A stretch of DNA of 64,000 nt from an uncultured Bacilli bacterium (lineage in GTDB: Bacteria; Bacillota_I; Bacilli_A; RF39; UBA660): the NCBI GenBank assembly GCA_947626515.1, contig CANQSL010000001.1, forward strand, positions 35,527 through 99,526, in the 5' to 3' direction. The notes under the pieces were generated by a model, which saw only the letters and a program-made list of their open reading frames with translations, made no database searches and was not told the origin of the DNA. This document shows positions 117-43,916 of this stretch, piece by piece. Position 1 is the stretch's first letter, and each line of letters opens with the position of its first letter. The translations under genes were made by a program, and so were the position numbers.

Positions 117-2459
117 ATGCTAAATTTAATAGAAGATAATTCAATTCTTATCATACCAAATAATATAAAAGAAGAAGTAATAAAAAATATAAGAAATCAA
201 AATAAAAATTTAAATATAAAAATATTCTCTTTAGAAGAATTTATTAATAATTTAACATTTACTTACAATGAAGAAACTATTTTTAGATTAATGCAACAAG
301 AAAACGTTAATTATAATATTGCTTCTATATATTTAAATAATATAAAATATGTAGATAAACATTTTAATATCCCTAAATTAGATAAACTTTATAACATAAA
401 AAAAGGCATAGATGATTATTTAATAAAAGACACCTTATTTAAAAAGCTTATTAAAAACAAAAAAATAATTATATATGGATATGATTATATAACAAAATAT
501 CAAGAATACGTTTTAAATGACCTAGAAAATGTAAAAATAATAAAAAAAGTATATAATAATAATAAACATAAAGTATATAGAATAGATACTTTAGAAAATG
601 AAGTTATTTTTGTTGCAGAAAAAATATCACAACTAATAGATGAAGGGGTAAATATCAATAATATTTTTTTAACTAACATAAATGACTCTTATTATACAAC
701 TATAAAACGAATTTTTGATATGTACAATATTCCAGTAAACTTAAATGAAAAGAAGAGTATATATAAAACACACATTGGAACATACTTTATTAATAACCTA
801 TCAAATGATATAGATAAATTATTAAATGATATAAAAAATAAATTTGATTTGAATAATATAAAAAATTATGAGATATATAGTAAAATAATAAATGTATTAA
901 ATAATTTTTACTTTACTAATAATTATATAGAAATAAAAGAAAATATTATTAACGTAATGAAAAAAACTTATATAACCAACAATATATATAAGAATGCAGT
1001 AAATGAAATAGATATAAAAGATAATATGATAGATGATAGTTCTTATGTATTTTTATTAGGATTTAATTTAAATAAATTCCCAATAATTATAAAAGATGAA
1101 GATTATATAGAGGATAATATTAAACCAAGTATATTAGAAACTTCAACCTATATGAATAAATTAAATAATGAATTATATTATAAAATAATATCTAATATAA
1201 AAAATTTAACTATAACTTATAAAGAAAAACATTTAAATGAAGTTTTTTACCCAAGTTTATTAATAGATGAATATAATATGGAAGTCTTAGAAACTAATAT
1301 GGATTACAGTAACTATTCTAATGTTATAAATAAAATTAAATTAACAAAAATGTTAGACAATTTAATTAAATTTAATATAAAGGATGATAAACTTAATTTA
1401 TTATATTCTAATTATAATATAGATTATATGATTTATGATAATAAAGTAACTCCGTTAGATTCAAATTTATTAAATAAATATTTAAATAACAACTTAGTTT
1501 TAAGCTACTCAAGTATGGATAATTTTTATCATTGCTCTTTTAAATTTTTTATATCTAATATATTAAAATTAGATATATTTAATACAACTATACAAACATT
1601 TATAGGAAATCTCTATCACTTTGTCCTTAGCAAATGTTTTAACGAAGATTTTGAATTTTATGAAACAGTAAAATTCTTTTTAGAAAATAACGATCACCCT
1701 AATGATGCTAAATCCTTATATTTTTTAAATAAAGTAATAGAGGAATTAGAATTTGTTATAAAAGATATAAAATACCAACACTCTTTAGGTAATATAGATG
1801 AAATTTTATTTGAAAAAAAAGTTTGTGTGGAAATACCAGGAGTTATTAACACAACATTTAAAGGATTTATTGATAAAATAATAAGACACAATAATAATAT
1901 TATGATAATTGACTATAAAACTTATGACATAGATATTAAATTGAACTTAATAAATTACGGATTATCACTACAGTTACCAATATACTTATATCTTGCTAAA
2001 AATTTAAATAAAAATTATAAAGTAATAGGTTTTTATTTACAACAAATATTATTCAATAATTTTAATAAAGATAAAAATAAAACGGTTGATGAGCAAAAAA
2101 AAGATAAATTAAAATTAAAAGGATATAGTTTAGGTAATGAAATATTATTAAGTGAATTTGATAAAACTTTAAATAGTAGTGAACTAATACACGGAATGAA
2201 AATCACTAATAAAGGATTTGGAGCTTATTCCAATGTATTAACTGAAAAAGAAATTAACAAAATAATATCTATCACAGAAAATAAAATAAAAAGTTGTATA
2301 GAAGATATTAGCGCTGGCATAATAGAAATTAATCCTAAAATAATAGATGGAAAAGAAATAGGCTGTACATATTGTAAGTTTAAAGATATATGCTATAAAA
2401 CTAACAAAGATAATGTTTATTTAGATAAAATAGATAATTTAGATTTTTTAGAGGAATAG
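117..2459 (+). CDS. addB: AddB/RexB-type helicase-nuclease subunit B (short form)
   Basis: C-terminal PD-(D/E)XK-like motif (IDYKTYDID) plus four Cys (FYHC...GCTYCKFKDIC) typical of the AddB iron-sulfur nuclease domain. Immediately upstream of addA. Only 780 aa and no Walker A seen. Confidence 0.7.
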   Translation: MLNLIEDNSILIIPNNIKEEVIKNIRNQNKNLNIKIFSLEEFINNLTFTYNEETIFRLMQQENVNYNIASIYLNNIKYVDKHFNIPKLDKLYNIKKGIDDYLIKDTLFKKLIKNKKIIIYGYDYITKYQEYVLNDLENVKIIKKVYNNNKHKVYRIDTLENEVIFVAEKISQLIDEGVNINNIFLTNINDSYYTTIKRIFDMYNIPVNLNEKKSIYKTHIGTYFINNLSNDIDKLLNDIKNKFDLNNIKNYEIYSKIINVLNNFYFTNNYIEIKENIINVMKKTYITNNIYKNAVNEIDIKDNMIDDSSYVFLLGFNLNKFPIIIKDEDYIEDNIKPSILETSTYMNKLNNELYYKIISNIKNLTITYKEKHLNEVFYPSLLIDEYNMEVLETNMDYSNYSNVINKIKLTKMLDNLIKFNIKDDKLNLLYSNYNIDYMIYDNKVTPLDSNLLNKYLNNNLVLSYSSMDNFYHCSFKFFISNILKLDIFNTTIQTFIGNLYHFVLSKCFNEDFEFYETVKFFLENNDHPNDAKSLYFLNKVIEELEFVIKDIKYQHSLGNIDEILFEKKVCVEIPGVINTTFKGFIDKIIRHNNNIMIIDYKTYDIDIKLNLINYGLSLQLPIYLYLAKNLNKNYKVIGFYLQQILFNNFNKDKNKTVDEQKKDKLKLKGYSLGNEILLSEFDKTLNSSELIHGMKITNKGFGAYSNVLTEKEINKIISITENKIKSCIEDISAGIIEINPKIIDGKEIGCTYCKFKDICYKTNKDNVYLDKIDNLDFLEE

Positions 2460-2462
2460 TTT

Positions 2463-2819
2463 ATGAATAGACTTTTAAATATAGTTAGAATTATTGTTTC
2501 AATAATTCTATGTATAATACTAATAGTATTATTTCTTAATTTAGCAAATGTTACCACTCAATTATTTTTAACGCCATTTTTATTAGCAGCACTTGCAACA
2601 TTAGGATTATCAATATCAATATACAAAGAAAATGATTTGTTAATAGTCTTCTTTCAAAAATGTTATATAATCTCATTTCTTTTATATTGGTTTGGATTGT
2701 TAATCCTAGGGTGTTATACTGCTTTGAAAGACAAACAAATGGGAATGTTATTATTTTCAATACCATTTTGGATAGCAGGAATATTTATAATAAAGAAATA
2801 TTTTTTTGATAAAAAATAA
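2463..2819 (+). CDS. Small polytopic membrane protein (about 4 TM) inserted between addB and addA
   Basis: 118-aa hydrophobic ORF, same strand, tightly packed between the two nuclease-helicase genes. Confidence 0.4.
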   Translation: MNRLLNIVRIIVSIILCIILIVLFLNLANVTTQLFLTPFLLAALATLGLSISIYKENDLLIVFFQKCYIISFLLYWFGLLILGCYTALKDKQMGMLLFSIPFWIAGIFIIKKYFFDKK

Positions 2820-2834
2820 AAGGAGGTTATCAAT

Positions 2835-5800
2835 ATGCCTAAATGGACTGATGAACAAGAGTTAGCAATAAAAGAAAGTGGAAAAAATATATTAGTATCC
2901 GCTGGTGCTGGAAGCGGTAAAACTGCTGTATTAACAGAAAGAGTTATTAGAAAGTTAAAAAATGGCACAAGCATTAAAAATTTATTAATATTAACATTTA
3001 CTAACAATGCTGCATATGAGATGAAATCCAGGATTAAAGATGCTATAAAAAAAGCAATACCTACTAACCCAAAGATAAGACAAGAATTGGATTATATTGA
3101 CAATGCATACATAACAACATTTGATGCCTTTTCATTAAGTATAGTAAAAAAATACCACTATGTACTAAATATAGGTAAGGATATAGGCATAATAGATTCT
3201 AGTATAATTGACTTAAAAAAAGATGAAATATTAGAAAATATATTTTTAGAATTATATAAAACAAAAGATAGTAAATTTTTAAAATTAGTAGATTTAATAT
3301 GTACTAAAGATGATAAAGTTTTAAAAGAATATATATTAAAAATAAATAATAAATTAGATTTATTAATTGATAAAGAACGATATTTAAACAATTATATTAA
3401 TAATTATTATAATATAAACAATATAAATAATATTATTGATGATTATGTTAAATTATTAAAAGAAAAAATAAATATAATTAAAGAATATTTAGATAACTTA
3501 TCTAGTGAAGTAGATACTAAATATATAAATGAGTATACAGATACACTAACTCCATTATTTATATCGGATACATATGAGGACATAAAAACTAATTCAAATA
3601 TAACTTTAAAACAATTAAGAGGAGCAACTGAATTAGGAAAAACTTTAAAAAAAGAAATGAATGAGTTGATTAAAGAAGTAAATAACATGTGTTATTATTC
3701 TAAAGATTTGCTTACAAAAAAAATATTAAGTACTAAAGAATACGTAGAACCTATCATTACTATTATAGACAAATTAAATAAAAATATACAAAACTATAAA
3801 CATAGCATAAATAAATATGAATTTAATGATATAAGTATTATGGCAATAAATATTGTAGAAAATAATCCCTATATAAAAGAAGAATTAACTAATAGTTTTG
3901 AAGAAATCTGTGTTGATGAATATCAAGATACTTCTGATATTCAAGAATACTTTATTAATCTAATAAGTAACCACAATGTATATATGGTTGGAGATATAAA
4001 ACAGAGCATATATAGATTTAGAAATGCCAATCCAGTAATATTTAAAGAAAAATATGAAATATTTTCTAAAGAAATAGAAGGAATTAAAATAGATTTAAAT
4101 AAAAATTTTAGATCAAGAAGTGAAGTATTAGATAATATAAATTTAATATTTAATTTAATAATGGATAAATTTATTGGCGGAGCTGACTATAAACTAAGTC
4201 ATAATATGATATTTGGAAATGAAGCATATATAACTGATGGAAAAACTAATCAAAATTATAATTTAGAAATATTAAATTATGAATACGATAAATTATATAC
4301 AAAAGATGAAATAGAAGCTTTTATTATTGCAAAAGATATAAAAGACAAAATTGAAAATAACTATCAAATTTATGATAAAGACTCGAAAAGTTTAAGAAAT
4401 TTAGAATATAAAGATATAGTTATATTAATGGATAGAGGAACATCTTTTGATTTATATAAAAAAATATTAGAGTATTTTAATATACCTACTACATTACAAA
4501 AAGATGAAAATATAGTCAAAAATACGGTATTAGTGATTATTAAAAATTTAATTAGTCTAATAATAAAAATTAAAGAAAGCATATTTGATCAAGAATTTAA
4601 ATATTTATTTACATCTATAAGTAGAAGTTATATAGAAAGAATAAATGATAATGAACTATTAAATATATTTTATGAGAATAAATTTAAAGATACAGAACTA
4701 TACAAAAAATGTTTACTAATAAGTATTAATATAGATAATATGACTAATAAAGATTTACTAGATAGTATTGTAGAAAACTTTGATATATTTAACAAATTTA
4801 TAACTAATGGTGACATAGAAAATAAAAGAATTATATTAGATTATCTATATAGTATATTTAATGACTTAAACGAAATTGGTTATGATATATATGACTTAGA
4901 AAATTATTTTAATAACATTATAGAAAATGATAAACAATTAAAAATAAATATTACAGATAATACTAATAATACCGTTACAATAACAAATATTCACAAATCC
5001 AAAGGACTAGAATACAATATATGTTACTTTAGTGGATATGATAGAGAATTTAACAAAATGGAATTAAAAGATAAAATAATATATGATAATAAATATGGAA
5101 TTATTTTGCCTGTATATGATGATGGTTTAGAAGATTTAATAACAAAAGATATAATTAAAAATAACTATATTAAAGAAGATATATCTGAAAAAATACGTTT
5201 ATTTTATGTTGCATTAACAAGAGCTAGAGAAAAAATGATAATAGTTACTGATTTAAATAAAGAAACGTTTTCTAAAAAGGATTATAACGACGTTATAATA
5301 AATAGAATAAGACTAAAATATAAAAGTTTTAAAGATATATTATTATCTATAAAAAAAGAATTAACTCCATTCATAAAAAATATAGATATTAATTCTTTAA
5401 ACATAACGAATGAATATAAAAATATTAAATCCATTAATTTGGAGAATTTTATTGATAAAACTGATAAAGTAATTAATATTAAAAAAATTAATGTTGATAA
5501 AAGTCAAGTTATTAACAAACATTTTAGCAAAGTAACCAATAATATTATAAATAAAGAAACTAGAAATAATATGGACTTAGGATTATATATACATGAATTA
5601 TTTGAAACAATAGATTTTAATAATATAGATTTATCAGATATTGATAATAAATATAAAATATATGTTGAAAATTTTATAAATAGTTCATTATTAAAAAATA
5701 TCAGTAGTGCTAAAATTTATAAAGAATATGAATTTATATATGAAGAAGATAATTTAAAATATCATGGTATTATAGATTTAATGCTAGAATATAAAGATTA

Positions 5801-5960
5801 TATTAATATAATAGATTATAAATTAATGTATACAGAAAGCGAAGAATATATAAAACAATTAACAGGCTATAAAAATTATATTGAAAACTCATTTAATAAA
5901 AAAGTTAATTTATATTTATATAGTATAATGAATAACGAATTTAAAGAAATACAAGAATAA
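2835..5960 (+). CDS. addA: AddA/RexA ATP-dependent helicase-nuclease subunit A (UvrD family)
   Basis: Walker A SAGAGSGKTAVL, UvrD-like motifs (DEYQDTS, FRSR), C-terminal nuclease motif IIDLMLEYKDYINIIDYK. Strong RBS aaaggagg 7 nt before the ATG. Confidence 0.85.
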   Translation: MPKWTDEQELAIKESGKNILVSAGAGSGKTAVLTERVIRKLKNGTSIKNLLILTFTNNAAYEMKSRIKDAIKKAIPTNPKIRQELDYIDNAYITTFDAFSLSIVKKYHYVLNIGKDIGIIDSSIIDLKKDEILENIFLELYKTKDSKFLKLVDLICTKDDKVLKEYILKINNKLDLLIDKERYLNNYINNYYNINNINNIIDDYVKLLKEKINIIKEYLDNLSSEVDTKYINEYTDTLTPLFISDTYEDIKTNSNITLKQLRGATELGKTLKKEMNELIKEVNNMCYYSKDLLTKKILSTKEYVEPIITIIDKLNKNIQNYKHSINKYEFNDISIMAINIVENNPYIKEELTNSFEEICVDEYQDTSDIQEYFINLISNHNVYMVGDIKQSIYRFRNANPVIFKEKYEIFSKEIEGIKIDLNKNFRSRSEVLDNINLIFNLIMDKFIGGADYKLSHNMIFGNEAYITDGKTNQNYNLEILNYEYDKLYTKDEIEAFIIAKDIKDKIENNYQIYDKDSKSLRNLEYKDIVILMDRGTSFDLYKKILEYFNIPTTLQKDENIVKNTVLVIIKNLISLIIKIKESIFDQEFKYLFTSISRSYIERINDNELLNIFYENKFKDTELYKKCLLISINIDNMTNKDLLDSIVENFDIFNKFITNGDIENKRIILDYLYSIFNDLNEIGYDIYDLENYFNNIIENDKQLKINITDNTNNTVTITNIHKSKGLEYNICYFSGYDREFNKMELKDKIIYDNKYGIILPVYDDGLEDLITKDIIKNNYIKEDISEKIRLFYVALTRAREKMIIVTDLNKETFSKKDYNDVIINRIRLKYKSFKDILLSIKKELTPFIKNIDINSLNITNEYKNIKSINLENFIDKTDKVINIKKINVDKSQVINKHFSKVTNNIINKETRNNMDLGLYIHELFETIDFNNIDLSDIDNKYKIYVENFINSSLLKNISSAKIYKEYEFIYEEDNLKYHGIIDLMLEYKDYINIIDYKLMYTESEEYIKQLTGYKNYIENSFNKKVNLYLYSIMNNEFKEIQE

Positions 5961-6023
5961 GCACTCTTGTATTTTTATTTTTAAAAAATAAGGAAATGCA
6001 AAAAATAATATAATATAATTTAT

Positions 6024-7445
6024 ATGAATGATTTATTTTATATTGATGGATATTATTTAGATGAATATCAAATTAATTGTATTAAAAATATGAATAATTT
6101 ATTAATTATAGCTGGTGCTGGAAGCGGTAAAACTAGTACCATTTTAGGAAAAGTAAAATATTTAATAAGTATAGGATATAAAGAAAGTGATATATTATGT
6201 ATTAGTTTAACTAACGAAGCAACTAATGGTCTAAAAAATAAACTTTTAAAAATTAATTTGAATGTTACTTGTATGACATTTCATAAGTTAGGTTTATCTA
6301 TATTAAAAAAAATATATCCTAAAGTTAATATATGTAAAGAAGATTATTTAAAATATATAGTAGATGAATACTTTTTAAGTATAGTTAAATATTCTTACAG
6401 AAAATATTTATTATATATGGAATTTAAAACTTTTAAATACAATGATATTATTAATTCTAAAAAATTTTTGTTATATAAAAGAAATATTATGACATTTATT
6501 AATTTATTAAAAAATAAAGACCAAAGCTATGAAAAAATATTTGATTTATATAAAAGCAGCTATAATAAAATAATATATTTATTTATATTAGAAATATATA
6601 GAATATATGATATAGAGTGTTTTAGTACAAATTCCTTTGATTTCAATGATATGATAAACATCTCTGCAAAATTAGTGAAAGAAAAGAAAATTATATTAAA
6701 TTTTAAATACATCATTATTGATGAATTTCAAGATTCAAGTATTATTAAATTTAATTTAATAAATAACATTATTGAAAACAATCACGCAAAATTAATGTGC
6801 GTTGGTGATGATTATCAAAGTATATATAGATTTGCTGGAAGTGATATAAATTTATTTCTTAACTTTACTAAACACTTTAAAAATAGTGAAATAATGTACT
6901 TAAAAAACACTTATAGAAATTCTAAGGAGATTTTATATATAAGTACTAAATTTATATGTAAAAATAAATATCAAATCCCTAAAGATTTATTTAGCGAAAA
7001 AAGTAATAGTAAACCAATAAAACTATATTTTTCTAAAAATAAAACAAAAGCATTAAAATATATTTTAAAATTAATTGGTAATGACTATATGATTATAGGA
7101 AGAAATAATATAGATATAAAATATTATGTTGATAAATATACAGATATTAACAAAATAAAATATTTTACTGCACATAAATCAAAGGGCTTAGAAAGTGAAA
7201 ACATTGTACTTATTAATATAAGCGACGATATAATGGGCTTTCCTTCTAAAATTAAAAATACAAAAATAATAAATAAATTATTTGATAAAGAACTTTATAA
7301 ATATGATGAAGAAAGAAGATTATTTTACGTTGCTATTACTAGAACAAAAAATAATGTTTATATTATTTTAGATAAAAATAACATGTCTATATTTATAAAA
7401 GAGTTAATAAAAGACTTCAAAAAATATATTGAAGTCATTAATTAG
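6024..7445 (+). CDS. Short UvrD/PcrA-family DNA helicase
   Basis: Walker A IIAGAGSGKTSTI, DEFQDSS motif and C-terminal RRLFYVAITRTKNNVYI motif. Only 473 aa. Confidence 0.6.
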   Translation: MNDLFYIDGYYLDEYQINCIKNMNNLLIIAGAGSGKTSTILGKVKYLISIGYKESDILCISLTNEATNGLKNKLLKINLNVTCMTFHKLGLSILKKIYPKVNICKEDYLKYIVDEYFLSIVKYSYRKYLLYMEFKTFKYNDIINSKKFLLYKRNIMTFINLLKNKDQSYEKIFDLYKSSYNKIIYLFILEIYRIYDIECFSTNSFDFNDMINISAKLVKEKKIILNFKYIIIDEFQDSSIIKFNLINNIIENNHAKLMCVGDDYQSIYRFAGSDINLFLNFTKHFKNSEIMYLKNTYRNSKEILYISTKFICKNKYQIPKDLFSEKSNSKPIKLYFSKNKTKALKYILKLIGNDYMIIGRNNIDIKYYVDKYTDINKIKYFTAHKSKGLESENIVLINISDDIMGFPSKIKNTKIINKLFDKELYKYDEERRLFYVAITRTKNNVYIILDKNNMSIFIKELIKDFKKYIEVIN

Positions 7446-8520
7446 TACCTAATAATTTAGCATGAATGACCATTTTAATCTCATGCGTATAACAAGTTGA
7501 AAGTGTCAAAATTTTACTATTTTCGTCTACATCTGTATCAAATTGATACTCACTTCTAGATTTTATCATCTCTAAAAAATCTTTATAATCTTCATCTGAC
7601 TCAAAGTTTGTTGTTAAATAATCTGTAGTTGTTGGAATTTTATAAATACTAAATATTTCCCAATTGCTATTTTGATTCTCTGTTGATATTTTTATAATAA
7701 AGTCTTTTTGATTATACCAACTTTGTTGAAAAACACTTTTTAAAGATCCAAACATTGTTCCATTATATAAACCATGAGCATATATTATAGTATTTTGTGA
7801 TAAGTTATTTATATCGTTTCTATAGTCCATAAAAACCCATCCACCACCATTATATGACTTATCGAACGAATGACTTAAATAGTAATCATTATCATTTGCT
7901 TTTACAAATGGATAATTAACTTTTGTATTAGGCACCTGTAGCCATCCTACTGTTTCATTGTTAATTTCCTTTAATTTATCAAAATTTACATCTATATATG
8001 AATATTCTCTATATTTATAATAATCGCTACTTTCGTCAACCTGAGTAGACATAACTTTTTCATACTCTTCTGAAGATGCAACCACATTTACAACATCAGC
8101 TATATCATATATATTATCAATATTTTTATTAGTCTTTTTATAATTAACTAAATCAACTCCAATTTCATATGATAAAAAAATTATAAAAATTGTTGTTATA
8201 ACAGATAAGGCTCTTAAAAAATTTTTTTCTAATTGTATAAAAATTTTGTTTTTATTTTTCTTAAGTCTAGGTAGCTCAATTAAAATTGTATTTTCAAGAT
8301 TAGGAATTTCCATTTCATTTGATACTTGAGATTTTAACATTGGCATTTCTATTACTTGAGTTTCATCATTTTCAACAGTAAAAGATAATTTCTTTAATTT
8401 AGGGAGTTCTAATATAATTGTATGATCTAAATCTTGAATCTTTTCTTTATATGATTCAATTAAAATTTGTTCTTTTAACTTAGGAATTTCTATTGTTTTT
8501 TCTAAAGATTCTTTATTCAT
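7438..8520 (-). CDS. srtB: Class B sortase with N-terminal cytoplasmic repeat extension
   Basis: Catalytic TLSTCY motif, IIYAHG His motif and SrtB-like VGWLQVPNTKVNYPFV...YYLSHSF region. One TM segment precedes the catalytic domain. The ORF track starts at a TTG (8538); the ATG at 8520 has a GAAAGGAAA RBS. Overlaps the 3' end of the convergent helicase ORF. Confidence 0.7.
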   Translation of the reverse strand: MNKESLEKTIEIPKLKEQILIESYKEKIQDLDHTIILELPKLKKLSFTVENDETQVIEMPMLKSQVSNEMEIPNLENTILIELPRLKKNKNKIFIQLEKNFLRALSVITTIFIIFLSYEIGVDLVNYKKTNKNIDNIYDIADVVNVVASSEEYEKVMSTQVDESSDYYKYREYSYIDVNFDKLKEINNETVGWLQVPNTKVNYPFVKANDNDYYLSHSFDKSYNGGGWVFMDYRNDINNLSQNTIIYAHGLYNGTMFGSLKSVFQQSWYNQKDFIIKISTENQNSNWEIFSIYKIPTTTDYLTTNFESDEDYKDFLEMIKSRSEYQFDTDVDENSKILTLSTCYTHEIKMVIHAKLLGTN

Positions 8521-8572
8521 ACATATATTTCCTTTCAATTTTATTATACATTATTCTTTATTACTAAATTTT

Positions 8573-8606
8573 AAAAAAAGTAAATTTTTAGTAAAATTTA
8601 CTTTTT
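8573..8606 (-). terminator. 12-bp inverted repeat (AAAGTAAATTTT / AAAATTTACTTT) between the surface-protein gene and srtB; likely attenuator or partial terminator
   Basis: Perfect 12-bp stem with 4-nt loop, flanked by T/A runs. Confidence 0.45.
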
Positions 8607-8608
8607 AT

Positions 8609-10273
8609 TTACATATTATTAAGTTTGTTTTTTATTTTTTTAATTTTATTTATAACTACTAATAAAGTTATGCAAAGTGTTAATAATAAACCTATATTTA
8701 AATAAAGATTATCAAATGTTTGAGGATTTTTATCAATTGTATTATCTTTACCCTTGTTTGAATTATTATTTGTTGAACTAACTTTTTTTGTTGTAGGTTT
8801 TTTTGTTGTAGTTGCTGATGAATTTTTATTGGATAAATAAATTAGTTTGTTGCCATATTTTTTTGATGTATTTTCTATTATACCAAATTCACCTAATTTA
8901 TTTGTTGAAACAACAACATTTTTAGATCCATCATATTTAGTAGGATACACTGCTATATCATTATCTATAATTACAATAGCAGCACCCTTTAAATTTGTAT
9001 AATTACTTAAAGAAGTGTTCATATAACTTGTATCAAAATATACTTCATACGTATTATTATTAATATTTACTGGGCTTTCGTACTCATTTAATAATTGTAT
9101 TTTATAAATTCCATAATCATATACGTTTTCTTTTGATAATGCTTCTATTTTATTTTTGTCACTAGTATTTTTTATTTGATGATCAACATTTAAATAATAA
9201 TTTGACCTCAAAGCATTATTACTTTTTACAACTATTTCATTTCCTAAAAGAATATTTCCATATCTAAGTAAATATTTTTCACTAAAATTATAATTATAAT
9301 CAACATCAGATAATACCAAATCTCCATCTTCATTAAATCCCTTATATAATTTAGAGGTAAATGTATTATAGTAATCTTTTTTTGTAAAAGAATTGTATTC
9401 TACTTTTTGTTGCATTTTTGGAGATTTGCTAGATAAATCAATAATTTGTTTCAATGAAGACGCTATTTCAGTTTTATTTAAAGTATCTTTATTAAATAAA
9501 TTTGTAAATGATTCAAATATATTATCATTATTCCATACATCTTCCGTTACAGTACCATCTTTAAAATATTTATTTGGATAACTGGATTTTAAAACTTTAT
9601 ACCTCTCTGCTCCAGATGAAACATACTCATTTGCATATTGATCTGCTAAAGCTTTTGAGTCTCCATATGTCACTTCTCTTATTGTATTAGTATCACTATC
9701 TCTTGTTACAAGTATTCCACTTATATTTTTGCCATTTTTATTTTTATAAGATAATCTCATGTTATTATATACTAAACTATAATTATGAGAACCTAAGGTT
9801 GAATCCATATCGATAAATTTATAACCATAATTTGAATTTATTATATTTTTAACAATTAAAGCACCATTTTTATTAGCAGTAACATTTATCTTACTTTCAT
9901 CTAATTCTTTATACAAGTAATTTACGATTACATCTTTAGTAACCGTTATGTTTATATCTTTTTTCCCTATTTGAGCAATTAAATCATATGTTCCTTCCTC
10001 TATTTCTAGTCTATTTTCTTCTTCAACTAATAAAACGTCATTATTATGAGATTCTCCTGCCCCTTCAAATCCTGCATTAGAATACACAAAACAATATTTA
10101 GAAACATTTTCTTCTATTTCTTCATCTGTTTCTAATTTTCTTACAGTTTCTATAAATGGAGATTTACAAACTAAAAATTTAAATTCTTCTTTAGTTGCTG
10201 CTTTAACAGTAACACTAGAAAACAGTATTGAAATAGCACTCAATCCTATACAAAACTTATCTATTTTTCTCAT
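8609..10273 (-). CDS. Secreted cell-wall-anchored surface protein (sortase B substrate candidate)
   Basis: N-terminal signal peptide (MRKIDKFCIGLSAISILFSSVTVKA). C-terminal NPQTF motif followed by a hydrophobic segment and a KKIKNK tail, i.e. an SrtB-type (NPQTN-like) sorting signal. Thr/Lys-rich stalk before the motif. Directly upstream of srtB. Confidence 0.65.
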   Translation of the reverse strand: MRKIDKFCIGLSAISILFSSVTVKAATKEEFKFLVCKSPFIETVRKLETDEEIEENVSKYCFVYSNAGFEGAGESHNNDVLLVEEENRLEIEEGTYDLIAQIGKKDINITVTKDVIVNYLYKELDESKINVTANKNGALIVKNIINSNYGYKFIDMDSTLGSHNYSLVYNNMRLSYKNKNGKNISGILVTRDSDTNTIREVTYGDSKALADQYANEYVSSGAERYKVLKSSYPNKYFKDGTVTEDVWNNDNIFESFTNLFNKDTLNKTEIASSLKQIIDLSSKSPKMQQKVEYNSFTKKDYYNTFTSKLYKGFNEDGDLVLSDVDYNYNFSEKYLLRYGNILLGNEIVVKSNNALRSNYYLNVDHQIKNTSDKNKIEALSKENVYDYGIYKIQLLNEYESPVNINNNTYEVYFDTSYMNTSLSNYTNLKGAAIVIIDNDIAVYPTKYDGSKNVVVSTNKLGEFGIIENTSKKYGNKLIYLSNKNSSATTTKKPTTKKVSSTNNNSNKGKDNTIDKNPQTFDNLYLNIGLLLTLCITLLVVINKIKKIKNKLNNM

Positions 10274-10404: not shown

Positions 10405-11577
10405 TTAATTTAGTCTTAAATATTTTATATCATCCATTTTAAGCGTTTGCCTTTTATCTATTATTTCTAAACATTTATTAATCCTTTCAATTAAACTTGG
10501 TAGTGGCAATTCTCCCTTTATACATTTAAGCATTTCAAATATTCTTCTCTCAGCTAAATTTACTGATTCCATATTAAAGTCAGAATTATCAAAACTAATG
10601 ATTTTTTCACTTAAATTTTTTGTTATTTTTGCTTGTGCAGAATTAGCAAAATCAGAAACAATCATTTCTCCACTATTATTCATTTGTGAAGTCAACAACA
10701 AAGTATTTGCAGTTTCCAATAATATTGGATTACTAGTCAAATCAACTTTAACTCCTTTTCTTGAATAAAAGTTAGCACGAATACCTTTTTTTCTACTAAC
10801 ATCAAGTCGATATGTACCATTAACTTTACCATTTTTCTTATGAGTTTCTATTAAAATTGAACCAACTTCTAAATTATCGTTTGAATTCAAAGATGCTTCA
10901 AAAGATACTGAAGCATTGTTTTGACTATCACTTTTGTCATACTCCTTTACGATTTTTACTAAACGCATTCCTGTATTTAAATCTCGAATTATCTCAATAT
11001 CATTAAACTTTTCTATTAATATATTATTTTTAAATGATACTTTAAAATAATCGTTTTTATATCTTTGCTTTAAATCACTAGTCAATCGACTATTTATAAT
11101 TGATATATCAAAATCATTCGATAATATATCAAATGTTATATCATAAGTAATTCTTGTTGGATGTTGCATAGTTTGTTTTTGACCAATTTTGTCAGATTTA
11201 GAAAACTTAATAATACCATTATTATTAAAAGAAAAAGCTCTTGCAGATTTACGTGAATTCATATCAATCCAGTCAATTCGTCCAAACTCACATTCATATT
11301 TCTTACCACAATCATCTTCTAATATTACTCTTCTAAGTGGCAAGCCGTTTCTCTTTTCTGGATAATATACATTTTCCAACTTATATTGATCATAATATTT
11401 TTTTTCAATATCTTGAACAACATATCTTTCTGTATTATATAAAGGTATACTATATGCATCTAAGCATTGTTCCCACCAAGAAGCATTCCAAGCACCAACA
11501 AATTCTTCTACTTTTTGCATTTCATCTAATACTTTTTCAACAGCAATTAATTGAGTTTCTTCATCTAAATTTTCCAT
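10405..11577 (-). CDS. Hypothetical protein (about 390 aa), no recognisable domain
   Basis: Long ORF. The ATG (MENLDEE) is preceded by a GGGGGA RBS. The track start at 11595 is an upstream TTG. Confidence 0.4.
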   Translation of the reverse strand: MENLDEETQLIAVEKVLDEMQKVEEFVGAWNASWWEQCLDAYSIPLYNTERYVVQDIEKKYYDQYKLENVYYPEKRNGLPLRRVILEDDCGKKYECEFGRIDWIDMNSRKSARAFSFNNNGIIKFSKSDKIGQKQTMQHPTRITYDITFDILSNDFDISIINSRLTSDLKQRYKNDYFKVSFKNNILIEKFNDIEIIRDLNTGMRLVKIVKEYDKSDSQNNASVSFEASLNSNDNLEVGSILIETHKKNGKVNGTYRLDVSRKKGIRANFYSRKGVKVDLTSNPILLETANTLLLTSQMNNSGEMIVSDFANSAQAKITKNLSEKIISFDNSDFNMESVNLAERRIFEMLKCIKGELPLPSLIERINKCLEIIDKRQTLKMDDIKYLRLN

Positions 11578-11895
11578 ATATATTCCCCCTATCAAAAAAA
11601 TTTTTATATGCTTAAAATTATAATTTTTTTGTTGTTTTTTTCTCCTCTTCTATTAGAATTTCCTCTACTTTAGTTCCAACCAATATTTGAACTTTATTAC
11701 ATTTAGTACAAACTCTTTTAGCATACATTTGAGGACCAACAATTTTTACATCATCTGTAAATATAGTTTCTTCATATTCTGAAGGAATACCATAACTTCT
11801 AATCCAAAGACTATATTCATGATCGCATTTATTTATCCGACTTTTATTTCACGTCTAAAGTAATTATAAAGAAAGAAAAAAATAATGTCAATTTT

Positions 11896-12873: not shown

Positions 12874-13713
12874 TTAAATATATTTAATATTATCTATAAT
12901 TGTTAAATTAGGCATTCTTTTAATAAGTGTTTTCTTTAACTCTGTTTTTTCTTTACCAAAATGAGCAAAAGGGTGATTACTTTCATCTACAAAACTTTCA
13001 CTAGTTAAGCCAAAATCTTCTAATAATAAATCATGAATTCGTCTTGTTATTTCTATTTCTCTTTTATCTTCATCACTTAATTCTTTTTTACTATCCAATT
13101 GTTTAAATCGTTCTTCGTATTCTTGTATTTTTCTTGCATGATCGAATTCCCAAGTTGTACCAGGCCCACCTACAATACCAGGACGAGATGGATACGGATT
13201 TCGTTGATCATATAATCTCTCTAATATTCTCATTACTCTATCTAATTCGGCTTCTCTCAATTCTTTACTTTCAAATGTTTGAAATAATGAAACATCCCCA
13301 ATATTCAATGTCTTAAAACCACTTGGAACTTTAGGAGTATTCCAACCACTAGAATGAATTTCTTTGTAATCAAAATCAAATAATTCTACGCTTCTATCAC
13401 TTAATTCAGTTGATACACTCAACCTTTCCAATACATCATTATTTCCAGATAAAATGAATTTATCATTTTGTTGATTAAATAAGTTTTGAACTCTATTGTA
13501 GATGTTATAAATTGCTATTTTTTTATATACTTCTAATTCAGCAAGTGCCTTTCTATCAGAATCACTAATATACTCTCTTATAACAGAAAATTCTAATTCT
13601 ATTAAAGAATTCAAATAATTTAGCATAGGTTCTGTAAGTATTCCTCTATATTCTTTTAAAGATTCTAATAATTCTTCTTTTGTTTTTATTCTATTTGTAG
13701 TTATAAATTCCAT
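12874..13713 (-). CDS. Hypothetical protein (about 279 aa) with locally elevated GC
   Basis: ORF with GGGAGGA RBS before the ATG (MEFITT). Segments such as ccaggcccacctacaataccaggacgagatgg are far more GC-rich than the window average. Confidence 0.4.
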   Translation of the reverse strand: MEFITTNRIKTKEELLESLKEYRGILTEPMLNYLNSLIELEFSVIREYISDSDRKALAELEVYKKIAIYNIYNRVQNLFNQQNDKFILSGNNDVLERLSVSTELSDRSVELFDFDYKEIHSSGWNTPKVPSGFKTLNIGDVSLFQTFESKELREAELDRVMRILERLYDQRNPYPSRPGIVGGPGTTWEFDHARKIQEYEERFKQLDSKKELSDEDKREIEITRRIHDLLLEDFGLTSESFVDESNHPFAHFGKEKTELKKTLIKRMPNLTIIDNIKYI

Positions 13714-13901
13714 CAATTATCCTCCCGATTACTATATATTATAGCATTCATATTTTTTGATGTAAATTAAAAAAGTTTTAATAATATTGCAAAAATAAAA
13801 AGAAAAAAGGAAGAGCATTAATCTCTCCCAAAATATAGATAATCAAACTAAAAGTTTGTTTAATACCACTATGGTGCCCTAAAGGAAGAAGTACAACAAC
13901 T

Positions 13902-35891: not shown

Positions 35892-35899
35892 AATACCTC

Positions 35900-38903
<3,004 letters not shown>

Positions 38904-39009
38904 TTAAACCCCTCTTTTTTCTAATATAATAAATAAATAGGTATTCAAATACTCCCATACCTATTTACATTATATCACAAAAAAATGTGATTTAAAATGA
39001 TTTTTAACA

Positions 39010-39471: not shown

Positions 39472-39596
39472 CTCCCTCGAGAAACCCTTATATCATTTAT
39501 TAATTGCAAAAAATGTAGAATTAAGGTAGAATTTAACAATTTTTTTATTTTTTATAGAAAATTAATAAATAATACAAAAAAAGAACAAAATGTTCC

Positions 39597-40715: not shown

Positions 40716-40834
40716 ATAAATCCTTCTTTCTTTTTTATTATTATTTTTATTATATATGTTTATTATGTTTATAACTTCATTTTCTCTTTTAAATCCTAGA
40801 AATTGTTATGTTTAAATCTTATAATTTATTAACA

Positions 40835-42178
40835 TTAAGTAATCTTTGCTTTAATTTCTTTTATTTGATTTTGTAATTCTTCATTATTTATCAAATCTTT
40901 AGTAACTTTTTCGATAGCATGTAATATAGTGGAATGATCTCTATTTCCAAATTCTAAACCAATTCTAGTTGTTGTTTCTTCTGTAGTATTCCTACAAATA
41001 TATATCGCTATTTGTCTAGCATTATTAATGTTTGCAGTTCTTTTCTTACTCTTTAAGCTTTCAACGGTTATATCGAAATAATCTGCGACGGCTTTTTGAA
41101 TTTTCCCAATATTATTTGTTGAATAAACTGAATTTCCTAAGTAATCTTTTAAGGCTTCAGTAGCAAATTCTAGGTTTATTTCTTTTGGATTATACATAGC
41201 TACATAAGCATAAAGTCTATTTATTGCGCCCTCTAAATGTCTTACATCACTTTCGCAATTATTGGCAATATATTCTATTACTTCATTTTTTACTAACTTT
41301 GCAACTTCATGTCCAGACATTTTATCTTTAAGAATCTTACATCTTAATTCAAAGTCTGGAGGAAAAATATTTGCGGTTAATCCCCATCTAAATCGAGTTA
41401 CGAGTCTATCTTCTAATAATTTTAAATCATCTGGAGATCTATCTGAACTGATGACTATTTGTTTATGAGAATCATATAGTGTATTAAACGTGTGGAAAAA
41501 TTCTTGTTGTGTTTTTTCAGCACCACCCAAAAATTGTATATCATCGATTATTAATACGTCTATATTTCTATATTTATCTTTAAAATGTTGAACAACATCA
41601 AAATTATCTGTCTCTTTTTTATTTATACCTATAAAATCGGAAATAAAAGTTTCGCTGGTTGTATATAATACATTTTTATCTGAATGTTCCACAATATAAT
41701 TACCTATAGCGTGCATTAAATGTGTTTTTCCGAGTCCACTTTTTCCATGTAAGAATAAAGGATTATATACTTTGCCTGGCTGTTCTGCTACAGCAACCGC
41801 TGCCGTTTGAGCAAGTCTATTAGTATCACCTATAACATAATTTTCAAACGTATATTGAGGTTTTAAATTAGTTTGAAAAGTTTCTTTTTTTTCTACTTTA
41901 TTGACAGTTATGTTTTGAGTATCACTTATAATATCTTCTTCTACTACAAATGAAATATCATAGGTTTTTCCTGTCAATGTTTTCAATATGCTTTCTATTT
42001 CATCATAATAATTGTTATTTAGAAAGTCTTTATGAAAGGTCATTGGGACAATAATTGTTATAGAATTATCTGTCATTGAGGCTATTTTAGTATCTTTAAA
42101 CCAAGTATCAAATGAAACACTAGAAATTTTTGATTTAATAACTTCTAAAAAAGTATTCCAAGAGAACTCTTCATTCAT
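40835..42178 (-). CDS. dnaA: Chromosomal replication initiator DnaA
   Basis: AAA+ motifs GKSGLGKTHLMHAIGN and LIIDDIQFL, plus the C-terminal DNA-binding domain. GGGGTGG RBS before MNEEFSW. Confidence 0.9.
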   Translation of the reverse strand: MNEEFSWNTFLEVIKSKISSVSFDTWFKDTKIASMTDNSITIIVPMTFHKDFLNNNYYDEIESILKTLTGKTYDISFVVEEDIISDTQNITVNKVEKKETFQTNLKPQYTFENYVIGDTNRLAQTAAVAVAEQPGKVYNPLFLHGKSGLGKTHLMHAIGNYIVEHSDKNVLYTTSETFISDFIGINKKETDNFDVVQHFKDKYRNIDVLIIDDIQFLGGAEKTQQEFFHTFNTLYDSHKQIVISSDRSPDDLKLLEDRLVTRFRWGLTANIFPPDFELRCKILKDKMSGHEVAKLVKNEVIEYIANNCESDVRHLEGAINRLYAYVAMYNPKEINLEFATEALKDYLGNSVYSTNNIGKIQKAVADYFDITVESLKSKKRTANINNARQIAIYICRNTTEETTTRIGLEFGNRDHSTILHAIEKVTKDLINNEELQNQIKEIKAKIT

Positions 42179-42196
42179 AAAACCACCCCGCTCCAT

Positions 42197-42499: not shown

Positions 42500-42622
42500 A
42501 TGAAGAGAACATATCAGCCAAATAATCGTAAGAAAAAGAAAAAACATGGTTTTTTTGCTCGTAAAAAAACTAATATATTAAATTCTAGAAGAAAAAAAGG
42601 TCGTAAAAAATTATGTAAATAA
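42500..42622 (+). CDS. rpmH: 50S ribosomal protein L34
   Basis: [24 protein letters not shown]...GRKKL with RBS aagaggtggagg. 40 aa. Confidence 0.85.
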
Positions 42623-42623
42623 G

Positions 42624-42642
42624 CCACAATATGTGGTTTTTT
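42624..42642 (+). terminator. Hairpin plus U-tract between rpmH and rnpA
   Basis: CCACA-ata-TGTGG followed by TTTTTT. Confidence 0.45.
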
Positions 42643-42646
42643 ATCT

Positions 42647-43913: not shown

Positions 43914-43916
43914 ATT

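What the first reader, a model, noticed from the sequence alone, without database searches (positions are those of the whole stretch)
7438..10273. Sortase B locus: NPQTF-anchored surface protein followed by an SrtB carrying a repetitive cytoplasmic N-terminal extension
The 554-aa protein has a signal peptide and ends ...KNPQTFDNLYLNIGLLLTLCITLLVVINKIKKIKNK, i.e. an NPQTN-class sorting signal with a non-canonical fifth residue (F). The downstream sortase has class B hallmarks but is 361-366 aa instead of about 240. Its first roughly 100 residues, before the TM segment, contain five tandem copies of a short motif [IL]E[IL]P.LK (IEIPKLKEQ, LELPKLKKL, IEMPMLKSQ, MEIPNLENT, IELPRLKKN), roughly 8238-8495. 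A repeat-bearing cytoplasmic domain on a sortase is unusual and could be a localisation or interaction module. A strong inverted repeat (8573-8606) between the two genes could set their stoichiometry.
Basis: seen in the sequence. Interest (0 to 1): 0.55.

Follow-up and report, generated by a model that had tools for sequence, protein, structure and literature searches.

The report
Sortase B with repeat-bearing cytoplasmic tail
A gut bacterium's two-gene cassette encodes a surface protein and the enzyme that probably staples it to the cell wall; that enzyme carries a rare, conserved, disordered tail inside the cell with five copies of a short docking-type motif whose partner is unknown.

Summary
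On the minus strand lie a 554-aa secreted protein (10273..8609) ending in NPQTF + hydrophobic segment + basic tail, a hairpin with a T-run (8606..8569), and a class B sortase (8520..7438; 360 aa from the ATG, which has the better ribosome-binding site). The sortase passes the NCBIfam SrtB model and its 19 best structural matches are all class B sortases.

Residues 1-100, before the membrane anchor, hold five copies of [ILM]E[ILM]PxL[KE]. That count never arose in 200,000 shuffles. The tail is translated: the ribosome-binding site and open frame are kept in orthologues of 60% and 50% identity, which carry 4-5 and 3 copies in different codons. A profile search of 1.84 billion proteins found the tail only in four sortase clusters (3 to about 12 copies). 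AlphaFold predicts it disordered. I read it as a multivalent cytoplasmic docking tail; its partner and purpose are inferred, not shown.

- F or Y at position 5 is common in this gut Bacilli lineage, where the conserved feature is an Asp after the pentapeptide.
- Long cytoplasmic tails of other kinds are frequent there.
- The catalytic Arg is replaced by Lys here and in most lineage members.

Verdict: a new variant of a known kind, of moderate interest.

The parts
8609..10273 (-). Sortase substrate gene: 554-aa secreted surface protein. No Pfam or NCBIfam family; fast-evolving.
   Evidence: ORF. No family hits. The only word-based database relative is P0124 at 97% identity. Positional orthologues in L001 and L002 are 26-28% identical.
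10196..10273 (-). Signal-peptide-like N-terminus (MRKIDK + hydrophobic core + VKA|A).
   Evidence: Read from the translation. The cleavage site is inferred.
8729..8836 (-). Low-complexity S/T/K/N-rich linker before the sorting signal; likely the wall-spanning region.
   Evidence: Translation. The role is inferred.
8714..8728 (-). Sorting pentapeptide NPQTF.
   Evidence: Orthologues have APQTF and APQTY.
8612..8713 (-). Conserved DN, then the hydrophobic segment and basic tail (KIKKIKNKLNNM) of the sorting signal.
8569..8606 (-). Intergenic hairpin (14-bp perfect A/T-rich stem, 4-nt loop) followed by a T-run. Probably a weak intrinsic terminator or attenuator after the substrate gene.
   Evidence: Fold: -9.7 kcal/mol, z = -1.0. 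Hairpin plus T-run of different sequence at the same place in L001 and L002.
8543..8548 (-). TATAAT hexamer 22 nt upstream of the sortase ATG; possible own promoter. No convincing -35 element.
   Evidence: Sequence. A TATAAT lies 20-21 nt upstream of the ATG in L001 and L002. The promoter scan did not score it.
8528..8535 (-). Ribosome-binding site AAAGGAAA, 9 nt upstream of the ATG at 8520.
   Evidence: AAGGA/AGGA lies 9-11 nt upstream of the orthologous ATGs.
7438..8520 (-). Class B sortase gene, 360 aa from the ATG (366 aa if the TTG at 8538 is used).
   Evidence: TIGR03064 181.7 bits vs cut-off 153.75; PF04203. PDB sequence and fold matches are SrtB.
8221..8520 (-). Cytoplasmic N-terminal extension (aa 1-100), predicted disordered, carrying the five-motif array and ending in the basic stretch KKNKNK.
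   Evidence: pLDDT below 50 for residues 1-87. Conserved in P0001-P0003 and, more distantly, in P0121-P0123.
8473..8493 (-). Motif copy 1: IEIPKLK (context LEKT-IEIPKLK).
8392..8412 (-). Motif copy 2: LELPKLK (context LDHTII-LELPKLK).
8332..8352 (-). Motif copy 3: IEMPMLK (context DETQV-IEMPMLK).
8293..8313 (-). Motif copy 4, degenerate: MEIPNLE.
8260..8280 (-). Motif copy 5, membrane-proximal and the best conserved: IELPRLK (context LENTIL-IELPRLKK).
8155..8211 (-). Membrane anchor (ALSVITTIFIIFLSYEIGV), preceded by basic residues, so the N-terminus is inside the cell.
   Evidence: Translation. Lies within a long helix, 88-141, in the model. Topology is inferred from the positive-inside rule and the need for an extracellular catalytic domain.
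7774..7776 (-). Catalytic His249 (YAHG).
   Evidence: Invariant in alignments A2 and A4.
7492..7494 (-). Catalytic Cys343 in the TLSTC signature.
7474..7476 (-). Lys349 at the position of the catalytic Arg (aligned with the Arg of ...EAGRLVVHAKL in B. anthracis SrtB).
   Evidence: HMMER alignment to 2oqw and 1rz2. K in 57 and R in 21 of 78 related sortases.
7413..7436 (-). Terminator-like hairpin (3 G-C pairs) plus T-run just after the sortase stop codon, inside the 3' end of the convergent helicase gene.

Best explanation
This is a dedicated substrate-sortase cassette from the chromosome of an uncultured, very AT-rich gut Bacilli bacterium. Related MAGs carry labels such as 'uncultured Bacilli', 'Tenericutes' and 'Mycoplasma sp. 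CAG:776'.

The upstream gene encodes a secreted protein held in the membrane by its C-terminal hydrophobic segment and basic tail. The downstream class B sortase is anchored by one N-terminal transmembrane helix with its catalytic domain outside. It most likely cleaves after the Thr of NPQT|F-D and joins the protein to the cell wall (inferred from homology; not shown).

A weak hairpin with a U-run between the genes probably ends most substrate transcripts. The sortase would then be made at a lower level, either by read-through or from its own weak promoter (inferred).

The sortase's first ~100 residues are a translated, cytoplasmic, intrinsically disordered tail. It carries five copies of a short linear motif, consensus [DE]-x-T-(phi)-phi-E-[LI]-P-[KR]-[LF]-K. 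I read this as a multivalent docking array that tethers or concentrates the enzyme on a cytoplasmic or membrane-proximal partner. That would place anchoring where secretion and new wall synthesis occur. The partner is unknown; the cell-division or wall-synthesis machinery is the leading candidate.
For: Shown:
- SrtB identity by curated HMM, by PDB sequence matches and by fold: the top 19 PDB hits are all class B, E about 1e-18 to 1e-13, against 1e-8 or weaker for other classes.
- Substrate-then-sortase order is kept in L001 and L002-L005, with signals APQTF-DN and APQTY-DN. The distant repeat-bearing sortases P0121-P0123 also follow a substrate: GPQTN, GPQTA-D, NPKTA-D.
- The tail is translated. 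A ribosome-binding site lies 9-11 nt before the ATG in all three orthologous loci. A 100-codon open frame in 24% GC DNA has a chance of about 8e-5. No Met lies near the membrane anchor. The motif is kept in orthologues of 60% and 50% identity, with copy numbers 5, 4-5 and 3. The DNA of the five units is only 44-69% identical, so they are not recent duplicates.
- The motif is non-random (0 of 200,000 shuffles) and confined to sortases. A profile search of 1.84e9 representative proteins returned 4 hits, all sortases, one of them with about 12 copies. A strict regex hits only sortase tails in about 320,000 aa of related ORFs.
- The tail is predicted disordered, pLDDT below 50 for residues 1-87, while the catalytic domain is confident.
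- Hairpin plus T-run sits at the same intergenic position with a different sequence in L001 and L002.

Suggestive for a wall-synthesis or division partner:
- An ftsW/rodA-type gene lies directly downstream, on the same strand, of the repeat-bearing sortases in L085 and L089/L090, and is adjacent in five other lineage loci.
- ftsZ lies within about 5 kb in four loci.
Against: - No binding partner, localisation or enzymatic activity was tested, or could be tested here.
- The alignment behind the AlphaFold model holds only 7 tail-bearing sequences, so 'disordered' may partly reflect shallow data.
- In the window itself no division or wall-synthesis gene adjoins the cassette. Its neighbours are UvrD-like helicases, GrpB and unknowns.
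- ftsW/ftsZ proximity also occurs for lineage sortases that lack the motif, so it is not specific to the tail.
- The catalytic Arg is Lys. As I recall, replacing this Arg in S. aureus SrtA severely impairs the enzyme (Marraffini et al. 2004, listed as a reference in PMC13257024; not re-read). Transpeptidase activity therefore cannot be taken for granted.
- The hairpin is thermodynamically unremarkable for this composition (z = -1.0).
- The distant relatives have only 7-23 nt between substrate and sortase and no hairpin.
Confidence: 0.6

Rival explanations
1. The motif array imitates the FtsZ C-terminal peptide. Each copy would bind a protein that normally grips the FtsZ tail (FtsA, SepF, EzrA or similar), recruiting the sortase to the division ring so that the substrate is anchored into septal wall.
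For: FtsZ from four related loci ends in EYEIPPFLRSDNY or DYDFPPFLRDKNF. The sortase motif (IEIPKLK, IELPRLK; in P0122 VEIPILK, IEIPVLR, IELPIFK) shares the acidic residue, I/L, Pro, hydrophobic and basic pattern. Both lie in disordered regions. ftsZ and ftsW lie near srtB in several loci.
Against: The match is out of register. FtsZ has P-x-F-L-R, with two hydrophobic residues before the basic one. The sortase motif has P-x-L-K, with one. The conserved Thr and upstream hydrophobic residues of the sortase unit have no counterpart in the FtsZ tail. The FtsZ of the window's own genome was not available. No complex prediction was possible with these tools.
Confidence: 0.15
2. The repeats are multi-site Thr phosphorylation and/or FHA-domain docking sites. 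A Hanks-type (PASTA) Ser/Thr kinase would phosphorylate the conserved Thr of each unit, switching sortase activity, stability or partner binding in step with wall growth.
For: Four of the five window units, and most of the 30 units compiled from six proteins, have Thr 4 or 6 residues before the Pro. That Thr is preceded by an acidic residue and has I/L at +3: T-I-E-I, T-I-I-L, T-Q-V-I, T-I-L-I. Acidic residues upstream and a hydrophobic residue at +3 are enriched around Thr sites dependent on M. tuberculosis PknA (PMC7164672). The pT-x-x-[IL] preference of many FHA domains is from my own knowledge.
Against: The kinase motif comes from Actinobacteria and is loose. The same residues fit a simple beta-strand-like binding peptide. 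The best-conserved positions are E-[LI]-P-x-[LF]-K, not the Thr: Thr occupies only 11/30 and 10/30 at the two alternative positions. No kinase, phosphatase or FHA gene was looked for or seen near the cassette.
Confidence: 0.1
3. The tail has no function of its own. It would be drifting low-complexity sequence of the kind common in the cytoplasmic tails of this lineage's sortases, or an annotation artefact with the true start further downstream.
For: Cytoplasmic tails of related SrtB vary from 7 to about 364 aa and are often N-rich or K/S/T-rich low complexity. Most relatives, including catalytic domains equally close to this one, manage with 10-20 residues.
Against: The motif is kept across orthologues of 36-60% identity with different codons and different copy numbers, including Pro codons in a 24% GC genome. 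Identity in the tail (55%) is similar to that of the whole protein (50-60%). The order of tail elements is conserved even in P0121-P0123: the block YKxKIxxLENT...SF, then the membrane-proximal LExT[IV]LIxLP unit, then YxQxEK. The ribosome-binding site and open frame are conserved and there is no internal Met near the anchor.
Confidence: 0.1
4. The Lys-for-Arg enzyme is not an active transpeptidase. It would be a pseudo-sortase that retains or chaperones the substrate in the membrane.
For: Lys349 aligns with the catalytic Arg of solved SrtB structures. The literature describes the His-Cys-Arg triad as conserved in all sortases (PMC13257024).
Against: His and Cys, the TLSTC signature and the whole fold are conserved. 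Lys occupies this position in 57 of 78 related sortases, and in the loci where a substrate was detected these lie next to proteins with conserved sorting signals. That argues for a working enzyme under selection. Lys retains a positive charge and hydrogen-bond donors.
Confidence: 0.05

Closest known systems
Staphylococcus aureus SrtB / IsdC (NPQTN) and Bacillus anthracis SrtB / IsdC (NPKTG)
   Same: Same enzyme family and fold: 33-41% identity over the catalytic domain, with PDB 2oqw, 1rz2, 1ng5 and 4lfd among the best sequence and fold matches. A single N-terminal membrane anchor. The sortase is encoded next to a substrate whose signal starts NPQT/NPKT, followed by a hydrophobic segment and a basic tail.
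   Different: No haem-uptake (Isd) genes were identified among the neighbours checked. The substrate is an orphan protein with no NEAT or other known domain. Position 5 is Phe and is followed by a conserved Asp. The catalytic Arg is Lys. A 100-aa cytoplasmic tail carries a motif array, whereas the short tails of the characterised enzymes are known to me only from memory.
Clostridium difficile and C. perfringens SrtB ([SP]PxTG-type signals)
   Same: Class B sortases of anaerobic gut Firmicutes acting on a few adhesin-like proteins, not on iron-uptake proteins. PDB 4ux7, 5gyj, 5b23 and 5yfk are among the top matches. Class B signals are summarised as (N/S/P)PXTG in PMC13257024. As I recall, C. 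difficile substrates also often have Asp after the Gly.
   Different: Those enzymes keep the catalytic Arg (6kyd is an R217A mutant structure). No cytoplasmic repeat array was found for them in the literature searched. Position 5 here is aromatic, not Gly.
SrtB of related gut Bacilli MAGs (e.g. 'Mycoplasma sp. CAG:776' protein P0107, 283 aa)
   Same: 42-55% identity in the catalytic domain; Lys at the Arg position; adjacent substrates with xPxTx-D signals, including VPQTF-DA.
   Different: Cytoplasmic tails of only about 10-20 residues with no motif. On a neighbour-joining tree of catalytic domains the window clusters apart with L001 and L002, with L079 as sister.
Septal enrichment of sortase A in Enterococcus faecalis
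   Same: Precedent that a membrane-anchored sortase is positioned at specific sites, here the septum, rather than spread evenly (10.1101/2021.07.23.451969). This is the kind of behaviour proposed for the tail.
   Different: A different sortase class, and no repeat array is involved. No cytoplasmic repeat array on any sortase turned up in the literature searches.

Membership tests
Class B sortase (NCBIfam TIGR03064; Pfam PF04203) | Scores above the curated cut-off of the SrtB equivalog model | tested here: met
   181.7 bits against a cut-off of 153.75, residues 106-352 of the 366-aa form. PF04203 scores 42.2 against 26.6.
Class B sortase (NCBIfam TIGR03064; Pfam PF04203) | SrtB-type fold | tested here: met
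   The catalytic domain of the AlphaFold model is confident. The 19 best Foldseek PDB hits are all class B sortases, TM-score normalised to the target 0.69-0.89. Other classes score E >= 4e-8.
Class B sortase (NCBIfam TIGR03064; Pfam PF04203) | TLxTC signature with catalytic Cys, and the catalytic His | tested here: met
   TLSTC with C343 and YAHG with H249. Both are invariant in alignments A2 and A4.
Class B sortase (NCBIfam TIGR03064; Pfam PF04203) | Catalytic Arg of the His-Cys-Arg triad | tested here: not met
   Lys349 aligns with the Arg of B. anthracis SrtB (...EAGRLVVHAKL). K in 57 and R in 21 of 78 lineage sortases. I therefore file it as a SrtB homologue with a variant His-Cys-Lys site; its activity is untested.
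Class B sortase (NCBIfam TIGR03064; Pfam PF04203) | Single N-terminal membrane anchor with the catalytic domain outside | tested here: met
   One hydrophobic helix at aa 104-122, after the basic stretch KKNKNK. Topology is inferred.
Class B sortase (NCBIfam TIGR03064; Pfam PF04203) | Cleaves its sorting motif and links the substrate to peptidoglycan | not testable with these tools
   Needs a peptide cleavage assay and cell-wall fractionation.
NPQTN-class (SrtB) cell-wall sorting signal | Tripartite C-terminus: pentapeptide, hydrophobic segment, basic tail | tested here: met
   NPQTF, then DNLYLNIGLLLTLCITLLVVIN, then KIKKIKNKLNNM. The tripartite definition is given in 10.1101/2021.07.23.451969.
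NPQTN-class (SrtB) cell-wall sorting signal | Pentapeptide NP[QK]T[NG] | tested here: not met
   The first four residues fit; the fifth is Phe. Orthologues have APQTF and APQTY.
NPQTN-class (SrtB) cell-wall sorting signal | Recognised by a curated sorting-signal model | tested here: not met
   No NCBIfam sorting-signal model hit the C-terminal 58 aa or the whole protein at E <= 10. The only sortase-related hit was EF0750_LPXTG at 11.9 bits against a cut-off of 47.
Intrinsic (rho-independent) terminator | Stable G+C-rich hairpin followed by a U-run | tested here: inconclusive
   The hairpin plus U-run is present and conserved in position in two orthologous loci. But the stem has a single G-C pair, dG is -9.7 kcal/mol and z = -1.0, and the consensus scan did not call it.
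FtsZ C-terminal peptide-like motif ([DE]-[IVF]-P-x-[FY]-[LMI]-[RK]) | Match to the consensus, as seen in the lineage's own FtsZ (EIPPFLR, DFPPFLR) | tested here: not met
   It shares E-[IL]-P and a hydrophobic-then-basic ending, but has one hydrophobic residue where FtsZ has two. This is a resemblance only.
Known protein domain or repeat families (Pfam-A, NCBIfam) | Any model matching the N-terminal extension | tested here: not met
   Only chance-level hits: YgbB E = 0.009, Pox_polyA_pol_N E = 0.026, ispF E = 0.035, all far below their cut-offs.

The most novel reading that the evidence does not exclude
A small clade of gut Bacilli sortases would have evolved a disordered cytoplasmic array of 3 to about 12 copies of a short linear motif that plugs the enzyme into the division or wall-synthesis machinery, for example by imitating the FtsZ tail or through phospho-Thr docking. 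That would be the first sequence-encoded localisation module described for a sortase. The same enzymes work with a His-Cys-Lys site and accept an aromatic residue after the scissile Thr, which would widen the accepted catalytic and specificity rules of the family.
Probability: 0.2. Interest if true: 0.7.

Novelty: new variant of a known kind. Interest (0 to 1): 0.45.

Why it matters
How sortases are placed in the membrane relative to secretion and new wall synthesis is still poorly understood, and no sequence motif responsible for it turned up in my literature searches. A conserved, multivalent cytoplasmic motif found only on sortases gives a direct experimental handle: pull-downs with the tail, motif mutants and localisation studies.

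Three side results matter for people who annotate or engineer sortases:
- Lys replaces the 'invariant' catalytic Arg in most SrtB of a widespread gut lineage.
- Position 5 of the sorting signal is nearly free there and is often aromatic.
- An Asp directly after the pentapeptide is the conserved feature.

Curated models miss these signals, so the surface proteins of these uncultured gut bacteria are probably under-annotated. Enzymes with new P1' tolerance are also of interest for protein ligation.

Tried and rejected
- Word-based homologue search with the tail alone returned nothing, not even the 98%-identical P0001. I treat this as a tool limitation, not as evidence.
- Word-based search with the substrate found only a 97% twin. 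The 26-28% positional orthologues were found only through gene neighbourhoods.
- AlphaFold on the substrate with a 2-sequence alignment gave pLDDT 34.6, which is unusable, so no fold search was run.
- A scan of JGI metagenome contigs with the tail alignment gave 419 pattern matches and no true relatives.
- Pfam and NCBIfam at E <= 10 on the tail and on the sorting signal gave only chance-level hits.
- Literature searches for sortase cytoplasmic repeats, for RF39 sortases and for the literal motif strings found nothing relevant.
- Downstream start codon: rejected (ribosome-binding site, open frame, conservation).
- Recent tandem duplication at the DNA level: rejected. Units are 44-69% identical in DNA and irregularly spaced, so the copies are dispersed along the tail rather than strictly tandem.
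- A promoter for the sortase: the TATAAT is conserved in position, but there is no credible -35 element and the scan did not call it. Left open.
- Link between Lys-type sortases and aromatic P1': 13 of 32 signals against 0 of 6, about p = 0.06 by my hand calculation from the counts, uncorrected for relatedness. Not claimed.

Full report
**Setting**

The window is 18-30% G+C in 2-kb windows. It contains the chromosomal origin region: dnaA-dnaN-recF-gyrB-gyrA on the minus strand and yidC-jag-mnmE-mnmG on the plus strand, with a GC-skew switch near 42 kb. So the locus is chromosomal, about 32 kb from the origin.

The closest sortase relatives come from uncultured gut MAGs. Their labels include 'uncultured Bacilli' (rabbit 'Lapin' and Hadza samples), 'Tenericutes', 'Mollicutes', 'Mycoplasma sp. 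CAG:776' and Candidatus Onthousia. A published survey implies that the RF39 order, unlike RFN20 and ML615J-28, keeps both peptidoglycan genes and srtA/B sortases (PMC10868615). That the window belongs to this RF39-like group is my inference from these labels.

Two minus-strand ORFs sit exactly where stated.

The 554-aa protein (10273..8609) has:
- a signal-peptide-like N-terminus;
- an S/T/K/N-rich linker;
- NPQTF (8728..8714);
- DN, a hydrophobic stretch and a basic tail ending KIKKIKNKLNNM.

It is the only protein in the 64 kb with such a C-terminus.

The sortase ORF is 366 aa from the TTG at 8538, or 360 aa from the ATG at 8520. The ATG has AAAGGAAA 9 nt upstream. The 98%-identical database protein P0001 is 360 aa and starts at the same ATG-encoded MNKESLE.

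The five motif cores lie at 8493..8260. In 200,000 shuffles of the tail the motif appeared at most twice. It occurs nowhere else in the window.

The inverted repeat is a perfect 14-bp stem with a 4-nt loop (8606..8575), running into a T-run.

**The enzyme**

- It scores 181.7 bits on the SrtB equivalog TIGR03064, whose cut-off is 153.75.
- Its best PDB sequence matches are B. anthracis, S. aureus, L. monocytogenes, C. difficile and C. perfringens SrtB.
- An AlphaFold model built on an 18-sequence alignment is confident over the catalytic domain.
- The 19 best Foldseek matches of that model are all class B sortases.
- His249 and Cys343 (TLSTC) are invariant.

Unexpectedly, the residue aligned with the catalytic Arg is Lys349. 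Among 78 non-redundant sortases in the related loci, 57 have Lys and 21 have Arg at this position. The distant repeat-bearing proteins P0121-P0123 keep Arg. A recent paper still states that all sortases contain the His-Cys-Arg triad (PMC13257024).

Where a substrate could be detected, these Lys-type genes lie next to proteins with conserved sorting signals. I therefore think they are active, but this is untested.

**The substrate and its signal**

The substrate has no Pfam or NCBIfam family and only a 97% twin in the word-based search. Positional orthologues upstream of the sortase in L001 (GCA_947629425.1) and L002 (GCA_947632375.1) are 26-28% identical and end in APQTF-DN and APQTY-DN.

Across 80 related genome loci, proteins next to SrtB end in [NVSTAP]-P-x-T-x followed almost always by Asp. 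Examples are VPQTF-DA, VPKTF-DG, NPDTF-DG, NPETF-DG, VPNTF-DG, VPDTY-DG, NPQTS-DN, NPQTI-DN, SPQTG-DN and VPSTG-DN.

So aromatic position 5 is a lineage habit, not a peculiarity of this protein. The conserved extra determinant is the following Asp. No curated sorting-signal model recognises the sequence, even at E <= 10.

**The tail is translated and conserved**

- In all three orthologous loci an AGGA-type ribosome-binding site lies 9-11 nt before an ATG that opens MNKESLE, MKKDFLN or MKNNSLE.
- A 100-codon open frame has a chance of about 8e-5 at this base composition.
- No Met lies close to the membrane anchor.
- P0002 (60% identity) has four strict copies plus a degenerate fifth, and P0003 (50% identity) has three. 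Identity in the tail (55%) is similar to that of the whole protein.
- Within the window the units share only 44-69% of their DNA, so they are maintained at the protein level.

A profile built from the three tails was searched against 1.84 billion representative proteins. It found four hits, all sortases: P0003, P0121 (380 aa), P0122 (540 aa, about 12 units) and P0123 (382 aa).

Thirty units compiled from six proteins give the consensus [DE]-x-T-(phi)-phi-E-[LI]-P-[KR]-[LF]-K.

The order of elements is also conserved:
- N-terminal short units;
- a block YKxKIxxLENT..L..K..SF;
- a membrane-proximal unit LExT[IV]LIxLPxLxKK;
- then YxQxEK and the anchor.

Single motif copies occur in a few other lineage sortases: L034 has LKLPRLK, L079 has IDMPKLD and P0095 has IILPMLK.

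On a neighbour-joining tree of catalytic domains the window, L001 and L002 form a clade with L079 as sister. That clade lies apart from the main radiation, and L085 (P0122) branches separately near the midpoint root, so the array is lineage-specific. A strict form of the motif hits only sortase tails in about 320,000 aa of ORFs from all the loci. No Pfam or NCBIfam model covers the tail. AlphaFold gives pLDDT below 50 for residues 1-87.

**How it most likely works**

The chemistry of surface anchoring is inferred from homology. The substrate is secreted and retained by its C-terminal anchor. It is cleaved after the Thr of NPQT|F and transferred to the wall precursor.

The tail lies before a basic stretch and a single helix, so it is cytoplasmic. 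Being disordered, conserved only at short motifs, variable in copy number and confined to one enzyme family, it looks like a multivalent short-linear-motif array that binds a partner. I cannot name the partner.

Hints toward the wall-synthesis or division machinery:
- An ftsW/rodA-type gene lies directly downstream of the repeat-bearing sortases in L085 and L089/L090, and is adjacent in five further loci.
- ftsZ lies within about 5 kb in four loci.
- There is a loose resemblance to the lineage's FtsZ tail, EIPPFLR against EIPKLK. The spacing differs by one residue, so this is not a membership.
- Sortase A is septally enriched in E. faecalis (10.1101/2021.07.23.451969).

A second reading is that each unit is a phospho-Thr or FHA site, with an acidic residue before the Thr and I/L at +3. 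This rests on a loose parallel with PknA-dependent sites in M. tuberculosis (PMC7164672).

**The hairpin**

The stem is almost entirely A-T and no more stable than 14% of shuffles. However, L001 and L002 have a different hairpin plus T-run at the same place, which supports a weak terminator or attenuator after the substrate gene.

A TATAAT lies 20-22 nt upstream of the sortase ATG in all three loci and might be a separate promoter. It has no good -35 element and was not called by the scan.

The distant relatives have only 7-23 nt between the two genes and no hairpin. This arrangement is therefore specific to the window's clade.

**Verdict**

This is a genuine SrtB-substrate cassette. Its genuinely new element is a rare, conserved cytoplasmic motif array on the sortase. 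The Lys-for-Arg active site and the xPxT[x]-D signals add lineage-wide points of interest. It is a new variant of a known kind, of moderate interest. The function of the tail is the open question, and it is directly testable.

Noticed in passing
window 7474-7476 (Lys349 of the sortase); also sortases in L001-L090: The catalytic Arg of the sortase His-Cys-Arg triad is Lys here. The same holds in 57 of 78 non-redundant SrtB from related gut Bacilli loci; 21 keep Arg. Aromatic residues at position 5 of adjacent sorting signals were seen only next to Lys-type enzymes (13 of 32 against 0 of 6; not significant and not corrected for relatedness).
   Followed up: partly
Loci L001-L090, C-termini of proteins adjacent to srtB (e.g. 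L014 4283-5773, L032 3892-5619, L027 6863-7759): The lineage-wide sorting signal is [NVSTAP]-P-x-T-x followed by a near-invariant Asp (D[NGS]). Position 5 is almost free (F, Y, G, S, I, N, V, L, A). Curated NCBIfam sorting-signal models did not match the window's example.
   Followed up: partly
L085 3254-4336; L089 1739-2032; L026, L052, L053, L054, L061 (about 6.6-10.8 kb); ftsZ in L034, L041, L069, L078: srtB repeatedly lies next to an ftsW/rodA-type SEDS gene. The SEDS gene is on the same strand directly downstream of two repeat-bearing sortases and on the opposite strand (convergent where adjacent) in five other loci. srtB is within about 5 kb of ftsZ in four loci. The FtsZ C-termini read EYEIPPFLRSDNY and DYDFPPFLRDKNF.
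   Followed up: partly
L040 3184-5082; L007 3098-4453; L060 4604-5782; L081, L082: The cytoplasmic tails of related SrtB are hypervariable, from 7 to about 364 aa before the anchor. Many are low complexity: Asn-rich, K/S/T-rich, or K/E-rich and coiled-coil-like. None has the motif array.
   Followed up: no
L005 and L079 (both on contig CANRPF010000022.1, MAG Lapin-019__bin41): One MAG contig carries two substrate-sortase pairs. One pairs APQTY-DN with the three-repeat sortase. The other pairs VPKTF-DK with a sortase bearing a single IDMPKLD motif. This hints at dedicated enzyme-substrate pairs.
   Followed up: no
L006 6821-12705: Four tandem surface-protein genes next to one srtB share almost identical C-terminal sorting regions ([VN]PSTG-DNVLTYAVMGTVALISVLGTAVYFKKVNE). 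This looks like a recently expanded substrate family.
   Followed up: no
window 7413-7445: The sortase gene and the convergent UvrD-like helicase gene (6024..7445) overlap by 8 nt at their 3' ends. A G-C-containing terminator-like hairpin (7436..7413) sits inside the end of the helicase gene.
   Followed up: no
window 10405-11595 (-) and 12874-13716 (-): The 396-aa ORF directly upstream of the substrate gene and a 280-aa ORF further upstream have no Pfam family; the 396-aa ORF also has no NCBIfam family. The 396-aa ORF and a small 83-aa membrane ORF are absent from the otherwise syntenic L001 locus (GrpB ... substrate-sortase-helicase).
   Followed up: no
window 33429-47904: Chromosomal origin region: dnaA (42196..40835), dnaN, recF, gyrB and gyrA on the minus strand; yidC, jag, mnmE and mnmG on the plus strand. 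The GC-skew sign change is near 42 kb.
   Followed up: yes
window 117-7445: A PD-(D/E)XK nuclease (780 aa), a 1041-aa UvrD/AddA-like helicase and a second 473-aa UvrD-like helicase lie next to the cassette. The 473-aa helicase is convergent with srtB in L001 as well.
   Followed up: partly
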